Shown here piece after piece: positions 59,416-62,512 of a stretch of DNA of 64,000 nt (position 1 is the first letter of the stretch; every line of letters begins with the position of its first letter). The stretch lies in assembly GCF_003790525.1 (NCBI RefSeq), contig NZ_CP033635.1; one strand, 5' to 3'. Both the position numbers and the translations under genes were made by a program. The DNA comes from Escherichia coli. GTDB taxonomy: Bacteria > Pseudomonadota > Gammaproteobacteria > Enterobacterales > Enterobacteriaceae. The notes below the pieces were generated by a model. That model made no database searches and had not been told where the DNA came from. It saw only the letters and a list, made by a program, of their open reading frames with translations.

Positions 59416-60234
59416 ATGCGATTAGCCAGTCGTTTTGGTTATGCGAACCAGATACGCCGTGACCGCCCCTTAACCCGTGAAGAACTGATGCAGGTCGTCC
59501 CCAGCGTATTCGGGGAAGAGAAACACACATCCAGAAGCGAGAACTATACCTGGATCCCCACCATCACCGTGCTGGAAAGCCTGCAGCGGGAAGGCTTCCA
59601 ACCATTCTTCGCCTGCCAGACCCGCGTGCGCGACCCGGGCCGCCGGGGATACACCAAACACATGCTGCGTCTGCGCCGTGACGGGGAGATAAACGGACAA
59701 CATGTCCCTGAAATCATCCTGCTGAACTCCCATGACGGTACCTCCAGCTACCAGATGCTGCCGGGTTACTTCAGGTTCGTCTGCCAGAACGGATGCGTCT
59801 GTGGTCAGTCTCTGGGGGAAGTGCGTGTTCCACACCGGGGAGACGTAGTGGAGAAAGTTATCGAAGGGGCTTACGAGGTGGTGGGGGTTTTTGACCGGAT
59901 TGAGGAGAAGCGTGATGCCATGCAGTCGCTGGTCCTGCCGCCACCGGCACGCCAGGCGCTGGCACAGGCGGCACTGACTTACCGTTATGGTGACGAACAT
60001 CAGCCCGTCACCACTGCTGACATTCTGACACCGCGACGCCGGGAGGATTACGGTAAGGACCTGTGGAGCGCATATCAGACCATCCAGGAGAATATGCTGA
60101 AAGGCGGGATTTCCGGTCGCAGTGCCAGAGGAAAACGTATCCATACCCGTGCCATTCACAGCATCGACACGGACATTAAGCTCAATCGCGCATTGTGGGT
60201 GATGGCAGAAACACTGCTGAAGAGTATGCGCTGA
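59416..60234 (+). CDS. DUF932 family protein (YfjQ-like)
   Basis: 272-aa ORF; conserved position after Ag43 in CP4-type islands. Confidence 0.6.
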   Translation: MRLASRFGYANQIRRDRPLTREELMQVVPSVFGEEKHTSRSENYTWIPTITVLESLQREGFQPFFACQTRVRDPGRRGYTKHMLRLRRDGEINGQHVPEIILLNSHDGTSSYQMLPGYFRFVCQNGCVCGQSLGEVRVPHRGDVVEKVIEGAYEVVGVFDRIEEKRDAMQSLVLPPPARQALAQAALTYRYGDEHQPVTTADILTPRRREDYGKDLWSAYQTIQENMLKGGISGRSARGKRIHTRAIHSIDTDIKLNRALWVMAETLLKSMR

Positions 60235-60324
60235 TGCCTTTTCCCTGAAAGCGCAGTTCTGACTCATGTCCGTCCCTGCCCCGCGACTTCTTCCATTCAT
60301 TTACTTTTTATAAGGAATAATCTC

Positions 60325-60810
60325 ATGACAACCGTTTTGCATAATTCCACCACACCTTCTGTTTCCGTAACCGCTGTATCAGAGAATAACCCGCCTCAAC
60401 TGGTTGCCACCCTCGTCCCTGATGAACAGCGCATCAGCTTCTGGCCGCAGCATTTTGGCCTCATTCCACAGTGGGTGACCCTGGAGCCCCGTGTCTTCGG
60501 CTGGATGGACCGTCTGTGCGAAGACTACTGCGGTGGTATCTGGAATCTGTACACCCTGAACAACGGCGGGGCATTTATGGCACCCGAACCGGATGACGAT
60601 GATGACGAAACATGGGTACTGTTCAGTGCCATGAACGGTAACCGCGCTGAAATGAGCCCCGAAGCCGCCGGCATTGCTGCCTGTCTGATGACGTACAGCC
60701 ATCATGCCTGTCGTACGGAGTGTTATGCCATGACGGTCCATTATTACCGGCTGCGGGATTACGCCCTGCAGCATCCGGAATGCAACGCCATTATGCGCAT
60801 CATTGACTGA
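60325..60810 (+). CDS. Antirestriction protein (ArdB/KlcA family, YfjX-like)
   Basis: 161-aa ORF with acidic patch PEPDDDDDETW; conserved position upstream of the radC-like gene. Confidence 0.6.
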   Translation: MTTVLHNSTTPSVSVTAVSENNPPQLVATLVPDEQRISFWPQHFGLIPQWVTLEPRVFGWMDRLCEDYCGGIWNLYTLNNGGAFMAPEPDDDDDETWVLFSAMNGNRAEMSPEAAGIAACLMTYSHHACRTECYAMTVHYYRLRDYALQHPECNAIMRIID

Positions 60811-60824
60811 AAGGGGCCGGAACA

Positions 60825-61301
60825 ATGCAACAGCTTTCCTTTCTGCCCGGAGAAATGACAACCAGAGAGCGCAGCCTCATTCAGCGGGCCCTGAAAACCC
60901 TGGACCGCCATCTTCATGAACCCGGCGTGGCCTTCACCTCCACGCATGCGGCACGGGAGTGGCTGATTCTGAACATGGCGGGACTGGAGCGGGAAGAGTT
61001 CCGGGTGCTGTATCTGAACAACCAGAATCAGCTGATTGCCGATGAAACCCTCTTCACCGGCACCATCAACCGCACGGAAGTCCATCCCCGTGAAGTGATT
61101 AAACGCGCCCTGTATCACAATGCCGCTGCTGTGGTGCTGGCACACAATCACCCGTCCGGTGAAGTCACACCCAGCAAGGCAGACCGCCTTATCACGGAAC
61201 GTCTGGTACAGGCACTGGCCCTGGTGGATATCCGGGTACCGGACCATCTGATAGTTGGTGGCAACCAGGTTTTCTCCTTTGCGGAACACGGTCTGCTTTA
61301 A
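60825..61301 (+). CDS. RadC-like JAB-domain protein (YeeS/YkfG/YfjY family)
   Basis: 158-aa ORF; JAMM-like H-x-H (LAHNHPSGEVTPSKAD) motif. Confidence 0.75.
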   Translation: MQQLSFLPGEMTTRERSLIQRALKTLDRHLHEPGVAFTSTHAAREWLILNMAGLEREEFRVLYLNNQNQLIADETLFTGTINRTEVHPREVIKRALYHNAAAVVLAHNHPSGEVTPSKADRLITERLVQALALVDIRVPDHLIVGGNQVFSFAEHGLL

Positions 61302-61369
61302 CCCGTCACCGTTACAACCACATCACACCTGTTTTCACTTTTATCTTCTGTCTTCAGAGGTATCCCACT

Positions 61370-61591
61370 ATGAAAATCATCACCCGTGGCGAAGCCATGC
61401 GTATTCATCAACAACATCCTGCATCCCGTCTTTTCCCGTTCTGTACCGGCAAATACCGCTGGCACGGCAGCACTGAAGCGTATACCGGTCGTGAAGTGCA
61501 GGATATTCCCGGTGTGCTGGCCGTGTTTGCTGAACGCCGTAAGGACAGTTTTGGCCCATATGTCCGGTTGATGAGCGTCACCCTGAACTGA
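61370..61591 (+). CDS. DUF987 family protein (YeeT-like)
   Basis: 73-aa ORF in the conserved position upstream of cbeA. Confidence 0.55.
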   Translation: MKIITRGEAMRIHQQHPASRLFPFCTGKYRWHGSTEAYTGREVQDIPGVLAVFAERRKDSFGPYVRLMSVTLN

Positions 61592-61670
61592 GTCTGGAAG
61601 GGCATTCAGATGAGCAGAATTATCGCCACCACCGGACCATTCTTAACCGATTTTCTGTGAGGACTTTATC

Positions 61671-62039
61671 GTGTCAGACACACTGCCCGGGACAACGCAT
61701 CCCGACAACAACAACGACCGCCCCTGGTGGGGGCTGCCCTGCACCGTGACGCCCTGTTTCGGGGCACGTCTGGTGCAGGAGGGTAACCGGTTGCATTACC
61801 TTACAGACCGCGCCGGTATCAGAGGGCGGTTCAGCGATGCGGATGCGAACCATCTGGACCAGGCCTTTCCGCTGCTGATGAAACAACTGGAACTCATGCT
61901 CACCAGCAGTGAACTGAATCCCCACCGTCAGAATACCGTCACGCTGTATGTTAAAGGGCTGACCTGCCATGCGGACACCCTCGGCAGCTGTGGTTACGTT
62001 TATCTGGCTGTTTATCCGACGCCCGAAATGAAAAATTAA
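61671..62039 (+). CDS. cbeA: Type IV toxin-antitoxin antitoxin CbeA/YeeU-like
   Basis: 122-aa ORF immediately upstream of the cbtA-like toxin gene. Confidence 0.75.
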
Positions 62040-62128
62040 CTCTCCAGAATAGCCTTCTGCTACGGCCTGGTGCTTTCACCACGCCACTTTTCCATTTTTC
62101 ATCTCTGCATATCAGGAAAATCTTCAGT

Positions 62129-62512
62129 ATGAAAACATTACCTGTATTACCCGGGCAGGCGGCCAGTTCACGCCCGTCTCCGGTTGAAATCTGGCAGACA
62201 CTGCTCACCCGACTGCTGGACCAGCACTACGGCCTTACGCTGAATGACACACCGTTCGCCGATGAACGTGTGATTGAGCAGCATATTGAAGCTGGCATTT
62301 CACTGTGTGATGCGGTGAACTTTCTCGTTGAAAAATACGCACTGGTACGTACCGACCAGCCGGGATTCAGCGCCTGTACCCGCTCTCAGTTAATAAACAG
62401 TATTGATATTCTCCGGGCTCGCCGGGCAACCGGCCTGATGACCCGCGACAATTACAGAACGGTAAATAACATTACCCTGGGTAAGCATCAGGAGTCGAAA
62501 CGATGCAACTGA
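62129..62512 (+). CDS. cbtA: Type IV toxin CbtA/YeeV-like (cytoskeleton-binding toxin)
   Basis: 127-aa [26 protein letters not shown]... matches the CbtA family over its length. Confidence 0.8.

What the first reader, a model, noticed from the sequence alone, without database searches (positions are those of the whole stretch)
59416..62512. Intact antirestriction - RadC-like - DUF987 - CbeA/CbtA module on the island
This conserved cassette combines an ArdB/KlcA-type antirestriction gene with a type IV toxin-antitoxin pair. All ORFs are intact here, whereas several K-12 counterparts are pseudogenes. The antirestriction gene on the same island as a type I R-M system is notable, since it could protect the island DNA during transfer.
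Basis: established knowledge. Interest (0 to 1): 0.3.

Follow-up and report, generated by a model that had tools for sequence, protein, structure and literature searches.

The report
Common E. coli antirestriction–toxin island cassette
This is the standard, already well-studied gene string (DUF932, ArdB anti-restriction, RadC-like protease, DUF987, CbeA/CbtA toxin-antitoxin) found at the end of P4-type genomic islands in over 90% of complete E. coli genomes; it is real and intact, but ordinary.

Summary
The interval 59416-62512 holds six intact, co-oriented genes, not five. The ArdB/KlcA antirestriction gene starts only at 60325. RadC-like JAB (60825-61301), DUF987 (61370-61591), CbeA (61671-62039) and CbtA (62129-62512) follow. 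The string continues with DUF5983, DUF957 and DUF4942.

All six match their Pfam families end to end. Their dN/dS against K-12 paralogues is 0.05-0.41.

The cassette occurs in 5017 of 5426 complete E. coli genomes, with a median of three copies, and identical proteins are already in RefSeq. ArdB is near-identical to the solved CFT073 ArdB (2WJ9). CbtA is 96% identical to K-12 CbtA and keeps R15 and F65.

The claim that K-12 counterparts are pseudogenes fails for the named genes. All 14 K-12 counterparts are annotated as intact; only flanking genes are decayed.

A type I R-M system does sit on the same ileX island (44498-52443). It is IS-flanked, low in GC and present in only 63 genomes, partly on plasmids, so the linkage looks incidental.

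One useful addition: close DUF932 homologues (62-64% identity) and more distant ArdB and JAB homologues lie mostly on conjugative plasmids. DUF932 sits in the F-like leading region beside oriT, which supports an establishment role.

Verdict: already known, low interest.

The parts
59160..59340 (+). Decayed DUF905 (ykfF-like) gene remnant between Ag43 and DUF932; just outside the reported interval
   Evidence: this spacer matches annotated DUF905 genes in other E. coli; alignment to AR202.2 shows shared start ATGCCGGGTTGTACATCACG, then internal deletions and an early stop in the window. End coordinate is approximate.
59347..59376 (+). GC-rich hairpin plus T-run (terminator-like), 40 nt upstream of the DUF932 start; followed by the motif TTCATTTA..AAGGAAT
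59416..60234 (+).
   Evidence: PF06067, E 4.2e-51, model 1-227/227; 75-76% identity to K-12 YfjQ/YafZ; 62-64% identical homologues in the leading region of F-like conjugative plasmids; confident model, no full-length solved structural relative.
60325..60810 (+). ArdB/KlcA-type antirestriction protein, 161 aa, acidic (pI 4.65)
   Evidence: PF03230, E 5.6e-37; 9e-98 to PDB 2WJ9 (near-identical over residues 26-161) and 5e-20 to KlcA 2KMG; 72-74% identity to YfjX/YafX; pI.
60825..61301 (+). RadC-like JAB/JAMM domain protein, 158 aa, motif HNHPSGEVTPSKAD intact
   Evidence: PF04002, E 6.7e-46; 2QLC, 9e-26; motif at residue 107; 97% identity to YeeS, 82% YkfG, 78% YfjY/LfgB; matches only the C-terminal half (positions 88-211) of the full-length RadC model.
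61370..61591 (+). DUF987 protein, 73 aa (YeeT orthologue)
   Evidence: PF06174, E 2.1e-39; 97% identity to YeeT.
61671..62039 (+). CbeA (YeeU) type IV antitoxin, 122 aa, GTG start
   Evidence: PF06154, E 4.6e-52; 5e-73 to PDB 2H28 (YeeU); 88.5% identity to K-12 CbeA.
62129..62512 (+). CbtA (YeeV) type IV toxin, 127 aa, R15 and F65 present
   Evidence: PF06755, E 4.4e-59; 96% identity to K-12 CbtA; residues 15 = R and 65 = F. PMC5624674 for the roles of those residues.
62503..62991 (+). DUF5983 protein, 162 aa, overlaps the cbtA end by 10 nt (full-length version of truncated K-12 YeeW)
63003..63200 (+). DUF957 protein, 65 aa (named from RefSeq annotation; no Pfam hit here)
63240..63266 (+). Strong terminator-like hairpin; likely end of the transcription unit
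63297..64000 (+). DUF4942 gene, cut by the window end; last island gene before tRNA-Ile (ileX)
   Evidence: PF13708, E 3.8e-49; tRNA-Ile lies about 100 nt downstream of this gene in ET474 and XD35.
44498..52443 (+). Context: type I R-M module hsdM-hsdS-DUF4268-hsdR on the same island
20206..20252 (-). Context: displaced 3' half of tRNA-Ile marking the left island junction, next to the P4-type integrase gene (20449-21765)
   Evidence: sequence; homology to island-free genomes stops at 20252; integrase domains.

Best explanation
The interval is the tRNA-proximal accessory module of a roughly 44-kb P4-integrase-type island inserted at ileX. It is the same module as in K-12 cryptic prophages CP4-6, CP4-57 and CP4-44. 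It is a co-oriented gene string: DUF932, ArdB, RadC-like JAB, DUF987, CbeA, CbtA, DUF5983, DUF957. It is probably one or two transcription units ending at the hairpin at 63240-63266.

Proposed working, by part:
(1) ArdB blocks type I restriction in vivo by an indirect, non-DNA-mimic route. This helps unmodified island DNA survive entry into a new host. It has been shown for the near-identical CFT073 protein and for K-12 YafX and YfjX, and is inferred here.
(2) The JAB protein is a JAMM metalloprotease with an intact motif. Its paralogue YfjY/LfgB is reported to degrade the antitoxin MqsA. The substrate here is unknown.
(3) CbtA binds FtsZ and MreB and blocks division and elongation; F65 and R15 are conserved. 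CbeA counteracts it by acting on the cytoskeletal filaments rather than by sequestering the toxin. The pair acts as an addiction and stress module that stabilises the island. This is inferred from 96% and 88% identity to the characterised K-12 proteins.
(4) DUF932 and DUF987 have unknown biochemistry. DUF932 has close, and ArdB and JAB more distant, homologues mainly on conjugative plasmids, and DUF932 sits in the F-like leading region next to oriT. The front half is therefore best read as an early-entry, establishment-type gene set.

Co-residence with the type I R-M is incidental cargo linkage.
For: Gene identities and completeness.
Ubiquity: 5017 of 5426 genomes, median 3 copies, 17,833 of 17,842 places chromosomal.
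K-12 paralogue identities: with annotation.
Solved relatives: 2WJ9 and 2KMG, 2H28, 2INW, 2JN7 and 2EA9, 2QLC.
Purifying selection: dN/dS 0.05-0.18 in 12 of 13 comparisons and 0.41 for CbeA against K-12 CbeA.
Catalytic and contact residues: JAMM motif, and CbtA R15 and F65.
Operon-like layout: spacers of 90, 14, 68, 79, 89, -10 and 11 nt, no strong + strand hairpin between 59377 and 63239, strong hairpin at 63240-63266. The K-12 paralogous set yfjXY-ypjJ-yfjZ-ypjF is described as one operon (PMC10846083).
Experimental literature: ArdB CFT073, YafX and YfjX active in vivo against four type I families but not in vitro (PMC2836571). CbtA, YkfI and YpjF toxicity, FtsZ and MreB binding, and the F65S and R15C variants (PMC5624674; PMC5371832).
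Plasmid homologues: DUF932 on at least 5000 plasmids, 4446 predicted conjugative, located ssb-DUF905-parB-psiB-psiA-hok-DUF932-SLT-traM. ArdB on 4649 plasmids, 3540 conjugative. JAB on 2336 plasmids, 1650 conjugative. IncL/M pOXA-48 carries JAB, DUF4942 and an antirestriction gene in one region.
Island borders.
Against: No function was tested here; all activities are transferred from homologues.
No sigma-70 consensus promoter was found on the + strand by the simple scan, so the transcription units are inferred from spacing and hairpins only.
The island shows no conjugation genes or recognisable oriT in the window, so how or whether it still transfers is unknown. That weakens the 'establishment on entry' reading for the island as it stands today.
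Most ArdB plasmid homologues are under 60% identical, and most JAB plasmid matches cover only the JAB domain, so plasmid context is suggestive rather than orthology.
The MqsA-protease report concerns a 78%-identical paralogue and a single study.
Confidence: 0.85

Rival explanations
1. Functional coupling. ArdB is on the island because of the island's own type I R-M. It would either shield island or host DNA from the newly arriving R-M, or act together with it during transfer.
For: Both lie on the same ileX island about 7.9 kb apart, and both are intact. ArdB family proteins inhibit restriction by type I systems in vivo (PMC2836571).
Against: The cassette is in 5017 genomes at 17,842 places, but this R-M is in only 63 genomes, with 23 of its 65 places on plasmids. 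Only 28 genomes share the linked arrangement. The R-M is bracketed by IS3, IS1414, group II intron, IS30 and IS66 debris and has 41-47% GC against 55% for the cassette. The two are in separate transcription units, separated by the GTPase and Ag43 genes. This R-M is divergent, scoring below the TIGR hsdM and hsdR cut-offs, and ArdB has not been tested on such a system.
Confidence: 0.06
2. Inert remnant. The cassette is a decaying leftover of a cryptic P4-like element, kept only by the selfish toxin-antitoxin pair, and the other genes have no current function.
For: The K-12 relatives are called cryptic prophages. There is a DUF905 remnant immediately upstream and abundant IS debris elsewhere on the island. 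No transfer genes are visible.
Against: All six genes are full length, with dN/dS of 0.05-0.18 even against paralogues whose synonymous sites are saturated. The JAMM motif and the CbtA contact residues are intact. At least 80% of the 4.3-kb cassette query is retained in 3846 genomes.
Confidence: 0.08
3. Anti-phage defence. CbtA/CbeA, perhaps with JAB and DUF987, acts mainly as an abortive-infection system, not as an island-stabilising module.
For: Many toxin-antitoxin systems on islands act in phage defence (general knowledge). The island also carries an R-M that contains a PDC-S11 candidate defence gene.
Against: None of the cassette proteins matches any PADLOC model. No phage-defence phenotype for CbtA/CbeA was found in the papers read here.
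Confidence: 0.07

Closest known systems
K-12 CP4-44 yeeS-yeeT-cbeA-cbtA-yeeW
   Same: Closest orthologues: RadC-like 97%, DUF987 97%, CbeA 88.5%, CbtA 96% identity. Same gene order and the same upstream GTPase - IsrC-like RNA - Ag43 context. An 88-89 nt antitoxin-toxin spacer.
   Different: CP4-44 has yeeR in place of DUF932 and ArdB. Its GTPase (yeeP) is a pseudogene, yeeW is cut to 64 aa, and it has no integrase. The window copy has all of these intact, and its CbtA is 3 aa longer.
K-12 CP4-57 yfjQ ... yfjX(lfgA)-yfjY(lfgB)-ypjJ-yfjZ-ypjF and CP4-6 yafZ ... yafX-ykfG-ykfH-yafW-ykfI
   Same: Same families in the same order. DUF932 75-76%, ArdB 72-74%, JAB 78-82%, DUF987 64-66%, antitoxin 61-64%, toxin 61-66% identity. 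In CP4-6 the cassette is also the tRNA-proximal end of the island.
   Different: In K-12, DUF932 is separated from ArdB by 3-6 kb of other genes; here they are adjacent, 90 nt apart. The K-12 toxin-antitoxin pairs are shorter (105 and 109-113 aa) with a 20-nt spacer.
ArdB of E. coli CFT073 PAI II (ORF14; PDB 2WJ9) and KlcA of IncP-1 pBP136 (PDB 2KMG)
   Same: Near-identical to 2WJ9 over residues 26-161 and clearly homologous to KlcA. Acidic (pI 4.65). The CFT073 protein and K-12 YafX and YfjX gave in vivo antirestriction against type IA-ID systems (PMC2836571).
   Different: The N-terminal 25 residues differ. Activity of this exact allele, and against the island's divergent R-M, is untested.
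Leading region of F-like (IncF) conjugative plasmids
   Same: Carries a DUF932 gene 62-64% identical to the window's, placed next to the oriT-proximal SLT/traM end and alongside ssb, DUF905, psiB, psiA and hok. A DUF905 remnant also precedes DUF932 in the window.
   Different: In the two plasmid regions examined, DUF932 is not followed by JAB-DUF987-CbeA-CbtA. The window's island has no ssb, psiB or transfer genes.

Membership tests
ArdB/KlcA antirestriction (Pfam PF03230) | Full-length match to the family model above the curated cut-off | tested here: met
   126.2 bits against a cut-off of 25, model 1-92/92
ArdB/KlcA antirestriction (Pfam PF03230) | Sequence homology to the structurally solved members (2WJ9 ArdB, 2KMG KlcA); small acidic protein | tested here: met
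   E 9e-98 and 5e-20; 161 aa, pI 4.65
ArdB/KlcA antirestriction (Pfam PF03230) | Alleviates type I restriction in vivo (plating efficiency of unmodified phage rises) | not testable with these tools
   Shown for CFT073 ORF14, YafX and YfjX in PMC2836571; transferred by homology
Type IV toxin-antitoxin CbtA/CbeA | Adjacent antitoxin-then-toxin genes matching the CbeA_antitoxin and CbtA_toxin models | tested here: met
   175.2 and 197.8 bits; 89-nt spacer, same strand
Type IV toxin-antitoxin CbtA/CbeA | Toxin residues needed for the FtsZ (F65) and MreB (R15) interactions | tested here: met
   R at position 15, F at position 65. Roles from PMC5624674
Type IV toxin-antitoxin CbtA/CbeA | Toxin arrests growth and gives lemon-shaped cells; antitoxin rescues without binding the toxin | not testable with these tools
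   Known for K-12 CbtA/CbeA, YkfI/YafW and YpjF/YfjZ (PMC5371832, PMC5624674)
RadC-like JAB domain (PF04002) | JAB domain with the JAMM metal-binding motif H-x-H-x(7-13)-D | tested here: met
   155.6 bits. HNHPSGEVTPSKAD at residue 107
Full-length chromosomal RadC (NCBIfam NF000642 equivalog) | Full-length match above the equivalog cut-off, including the N-terminal region | tested here: not met
   163.3 bits, below the cut-off of 180; only model positions 88-211 of 212 are matched. It is a short JAB-only RadC-like protein, not the housekeeping RadC/YicR
DUF932 (PF06067) | Full-length model match | tested here: met
   174.3 bits, 1-227/227
DUF987 (PF06174) | Full-length model match | tested here: met
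   133.7 bits, 1-65/65
tRNA-inserted P4-integrase-type genomic island (CP4-like) | Tyrosine integrase with an arm-type DNA-binding domain, plus a duplicated tRNA 3' segment at the two ends | tested here: met
   Arm-DNA-bind_3 and Phage_integrase domains; 47-nt tRNA-Ile 3' half at 20206-20252; full tRNA-Ile about 250 nt beyond the window end in near-identical genomes
Type I restriction-modification system (context claim) | HsdM, HsdS and HsdR genes all present and open | tested here: met
   807-, 436- and 1005-aa ORFs with HsdM_N/N6_Mtase, Methylase_S and HSDR_N/ResIII/T1R_D3 domains. They score below the TIGR equivalog cut-offs, so the subtype is divergent

The most novel reading that the evidence does not exclude
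Probability: 0.1. Interest if true: 0.5.

Novelty: already known. Interest (0 to 1): 0.1.

Why it matters
It matters little as a discovery. The cassette, its toxin-antitoxin pair and its ArdB protein have been characterised in K-12 and CFT073, and identical proteins are already in RefSeq. Its value is as correct annotation. The interval holds six genes, the largest of which (DUF932) has unknown function and a plasmid leading-region pedigree. The co-located type I R-M is independent cargo. The only open biology is what DUF932, DUF987 and the JAB protease do, and whether such islands still use these genes during horizontal transfer.

Tried and rejected
(1) Exact source genome. ET474 is identical only over 53148-64000. 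Elsewhere the window differs by an IS66 insertion and a different hsdS. No record in the collection matches the whole 24.5 kb perfectly.
(2) Rfam. Gathering-threshold hits lie only outside the interval: ALIL, a group II intron and IS102/IsrC. A permissive scan of 58900-63400 gave only chance-level hits with E 0.24-0.48.
(3) Promoter scan. No + strand sigma-70 consensus site in 58900-63400, and total hits below the shuffle expectation.
(4) Phage origin. The cassette matches only one 3.2-kb unannotated record in 50,697 phage records. It is an island module, not a phage one.
(5) NCBIfam gave names only for RadC and the R-M subunits. PADLOC gave nothing for cassette proteins.
(7) No PDB relatives by sequence for CbtA or DUF932.
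(8) A literature search for DUF932 returned only incidental mentions.
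Full report
**What is in the interval**

ORF listing and Pfam scanning show six co-oriented + strand genes between 59416 and 62512:

| Gene | Coordinates | Length | Pfam match |
|---|---|---|---|
| DUF932 | 59416-60234 | 272 aa | PF06067, E 4.2e-51, model 1-227/227 |
| ArdB/KlcA-type antirestriction | 60325-60810 | 161 aa | PF03230, E 5.6e-37 |
| RadC-like JAB | 60825-61301 | 158 aa | PF04002, E 6.7e-46 |
| DUF987 | 61370-61591 | 73 aa | E 2.1e-39 |
| CbeA antitoxin | 61671-62039 | 122 aa, GTG start | E 4.6e-52 |
| CbtA toxin | 62129-62512 | 127 aa | E 4.4e-59 |

These coordinates equal the RefSeq gene calls in strain ET474, which is 100% identical to the window over 53148-64000.

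However, the interval begins with a sixth, unnamed gene (DUF932), and the antirestriction gene starts 909 bases later than stated.

The string also continues past 62512:
- DUF5983 (62503-62991) overlaps cbtA by 10 nt.
- DUF957 follows at 63003-63200.
- A strong terminator-like hairpin sits at 63240-63266.
- DUF4942 runs from 63297 to beyond the window end.

Immediately upstream, at about 59160-59340, the spacer after Ag43 is a decayed DUF905 gene.

**Is it real and under constraint?**

All six proteins cover their family models end to end. Pairwise dN/dS against K-12 paralogues is 0.05-0.18 in 12 of 13 comparisons. The exception is 0.41 for CbeA against K-12 CbeA, at low divergence. dS is saturated for the distant pairs, so those ratios are approximate.

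The JAB protein keeps the JAMM motif HNHPSGEVTPSKAD. CbtA keeps R15 and F65, the residues whose substitution abolishes MreB and FtsZ binding respectively (PMC5624674).

**How common is it?**

A 4.3-kb query spanning the cassette matches 5017 of 5426 complete E. coli genomes. The median is 3 places per genome, and 17,833 of 17,842 places are chromosomal. 3846 genomes have a place covering at least 80% of the query.

Identical proteins already carry RefSeq WP_ accessions. It is not a phage module: only one short unannotated record matches in 50,697 phage records.

**Relation to K-12**

The MG1655 annotation and BLASTP give these identities to the window's proteins:

| Window protein | CP4-44 | CP4-6 / CP4-57 |
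|---|---|---|
| RadC-like JAB | YeeS 97% | 78-82% |
| DUF987 | YeeT 97% | 64-66% |
| CbeA | CbeA 88.5% | 61-64% |
| CbtA | CbtA 96% | 61-66% |
| DUF932 | absent | 75-76% |
| ArdB | absent | 72-74% |

All 14 K-12 counterparts of the five named genes are annotated as intact CDS. The K-12 pseudogenes are flanking genes (yeeP, ypjI, ykfK, ykfL, yfjV). yeeW is a 64-aa truncation of the 162-aa DUF5983. CP4-44 lacks DUF932 and ArdB altogether, with yeeR in their place.

**Function from characterised relatives**

- ArdB matches PDB 2WJ9 (CFT073 ArdB) at E 9e-98, near-identical over residues 26-161, and KlcA 2KMG at 5e-20.
- Serfiotis-Mitsa et al. (PMC2836571) showed that CFT073 ORF14, YafX and YfjX alleviate restriction by all four type I families in vivo. 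They do not inhibit EcoKI in vitro, so the mechanism is indirect and is not DNA mimicry.
- CbeA matches the YeeU and YfjZ structures.
- CbtA, YkfI and YpjF are toxic, give lemon-shaped cells and bind FtsZ and MreB (PMC5371832; PMC5624674).
- The K-12 paralogous set yfjXY-ypjJ-yfjZ-ypjF is described as one operon, and YfjY/LfgB as a protease that degrades MqsA (PMC10846083).
- The window's JAB protein matches only the C-terminal half of the full-length RadC equivalog and falls below its cut-off. It is a JAB-only RadC-like protein, not housekeeping RadC.

**Layout**

Spacers are 90, 14, 68, 79, 89, -10 and 11 nt. There is no strong + strand hairpin between 59377 and 63239, and strong hairpins sit at 59347-59376 and 63240-63266. 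This fits one transcription unit from DUF932 or ArdB to DUF957. No consensus promoter was found, so this remains an inference.

**New context found here**

DUF932 has 62-64% identical homologues on at least 5000 plasmids, of which 4446 are predicted conjugative.

In two IncF plasmids the gene lies in the leading region. The order is ssb, DUF905, parB-like, psiB, psiA, hok, DUF932, SLT transglycosylase, traM.

Homologues of two other cassette proteins are also mostly on conjugative plasmids:
- ArdB: 3540 of 4649 matching plasmids.
- JAB: 1650 of 2336 matching plasmids.

An IncL/M pOXA-48 plasmid carries JAB, DUF4942 and an antirestriction gene in one region. The DUF905 remnant upstream of DUF932 in the window echoes the plasmid DUF905. 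The front half of the cassette therefore looks like an establishment (early-entry) gene set shared with conjugative elements.

**The island and the R-M claim**

- Left junction: a 47-nt 3' half of tRNA-Ile at 20206-20252, next to a P4-type integrase gene (20449-21765). Homology to island-free genomes stops at 20252, where those genomes have ileX.
- Right end: the full tRNA-Ile lies about 250 nt beyond the window end in near-identical genomes.

The type I R-M is on this island and is open throughout. It consists of hsdM 44498-46921, hsdS 46928-48238, DUF4268 48248-49411 and hsdR 49426-52443.

Several observations argue against a functional link with the cassette:
- The R-M occurs in only 63 of 5426 genomes, with 23 of its 65 places on plasmids.
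- Only 28 genomes share the linked 24.5-kb arrangement.
- It is bracketed by IS and group II intron debris.
- It has 41-47% GC against 55% for the cassette.

Co-residence is therefore best read as incidental cargo linkage, not a functional pairing. Whether ArdB acts on this divergent R-M, which scores below the TIGR hsdM and hsdR cut-offs, is untested.

**Verdict**

The feature is already known and very common. Interest is low.

Noticed in passing
window 59160-59340: The spacer between Ag43 and DUF932 is a decayed DUF905 (ykfF-like) gene. It shares its start with annotated DUF905 genes in other strains, then has internal deletions and an early stop. DUF905 is also a leading-region gene next to ssb on IncF plasmids.
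   Followed up: partly
window 59347-59410, 60296-60318, 63240-63289 (also upstream of 54998 and 56243): A recurring unit sits directly upstream of several island genes: a GC-rich hairpin plus T-run, then TTCATTTA-N(5-32)-AAGGAAT, then ATG. The motif occurs 3 times against 0 expected. K-12 yfjP, ykfA, yfjQ, yafZ, yfjX and yafX show the same hairpin-before-start-codon layout. Its role (terminator, attenuator or processing site) is unknown.
   Followed up: partly
window 55988-56224: Rfam IS102/IsrC-type small RNA (60 bits, above the gathering score) lies between the intact GTPase gene (54998-55870) and Ag43 (56243-59089). This mirrors K-12 yeeP-isrC-flu.
   Followed up: no
window 48248-49411: The DUF4268 gene nested between hsdS and hsdR matches the PADLOC candidate defence family PDC-S11 at E 4.5e-182. 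The HsdM (807 aa) and HsdR score below the TIGR equivalog cut-offs, so this is a divergent four-gene type I-like system.
   Followed up: partly
window 46881-48142: The hsdS specificity gene diverges from the otherwise 99%-identical R-M of ET474 and XD35 (unaligned or 89% identity). Strain LR-72 has a 100% identical R-M including hsdS. This suggests target-recognition-domain swapping among strains.
   Followed up: partly
window 41052-43781: An IS3-family element (ALIL frameshift pseudoknot at 41052-41168) is interrupted by a group II intron (domain hit at 43695-43781). The intron's ltrA is annotated with an internal stop in near-identical genomes.
   Followed up: no
window 20206-20252 versus L003 27762-27837: The displaced tRNA-Ile 3' half at the left junction differs at 4 positions, compensatory in the T-arm, from the 3' half of the intact tRNA at the right end. 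The island therefore supplied its own tRNA 3' segment on integration.
   Followed up: partly
window 61671-62512: The antitoxin CbeA shows dN/dS 0.41 against K-12 CbeA, while the adjacent toxin CbtA shows 0.08 at similar dS (0.14-0.23). The antitoxin appears to be evolving faster than the toxin.
   Followed up: no
L009 (pOXA-48-type IncL/M plasmid NZ_CP039959.1) 6917-14363: JAB domain, DUF4942, DUF1380 and antirestriction genes cluster in one region of a conjugative IncL/M plasmid. This parallels the JAB, DUF4942 and ArdB content of the window's island end.
   Followed up: no
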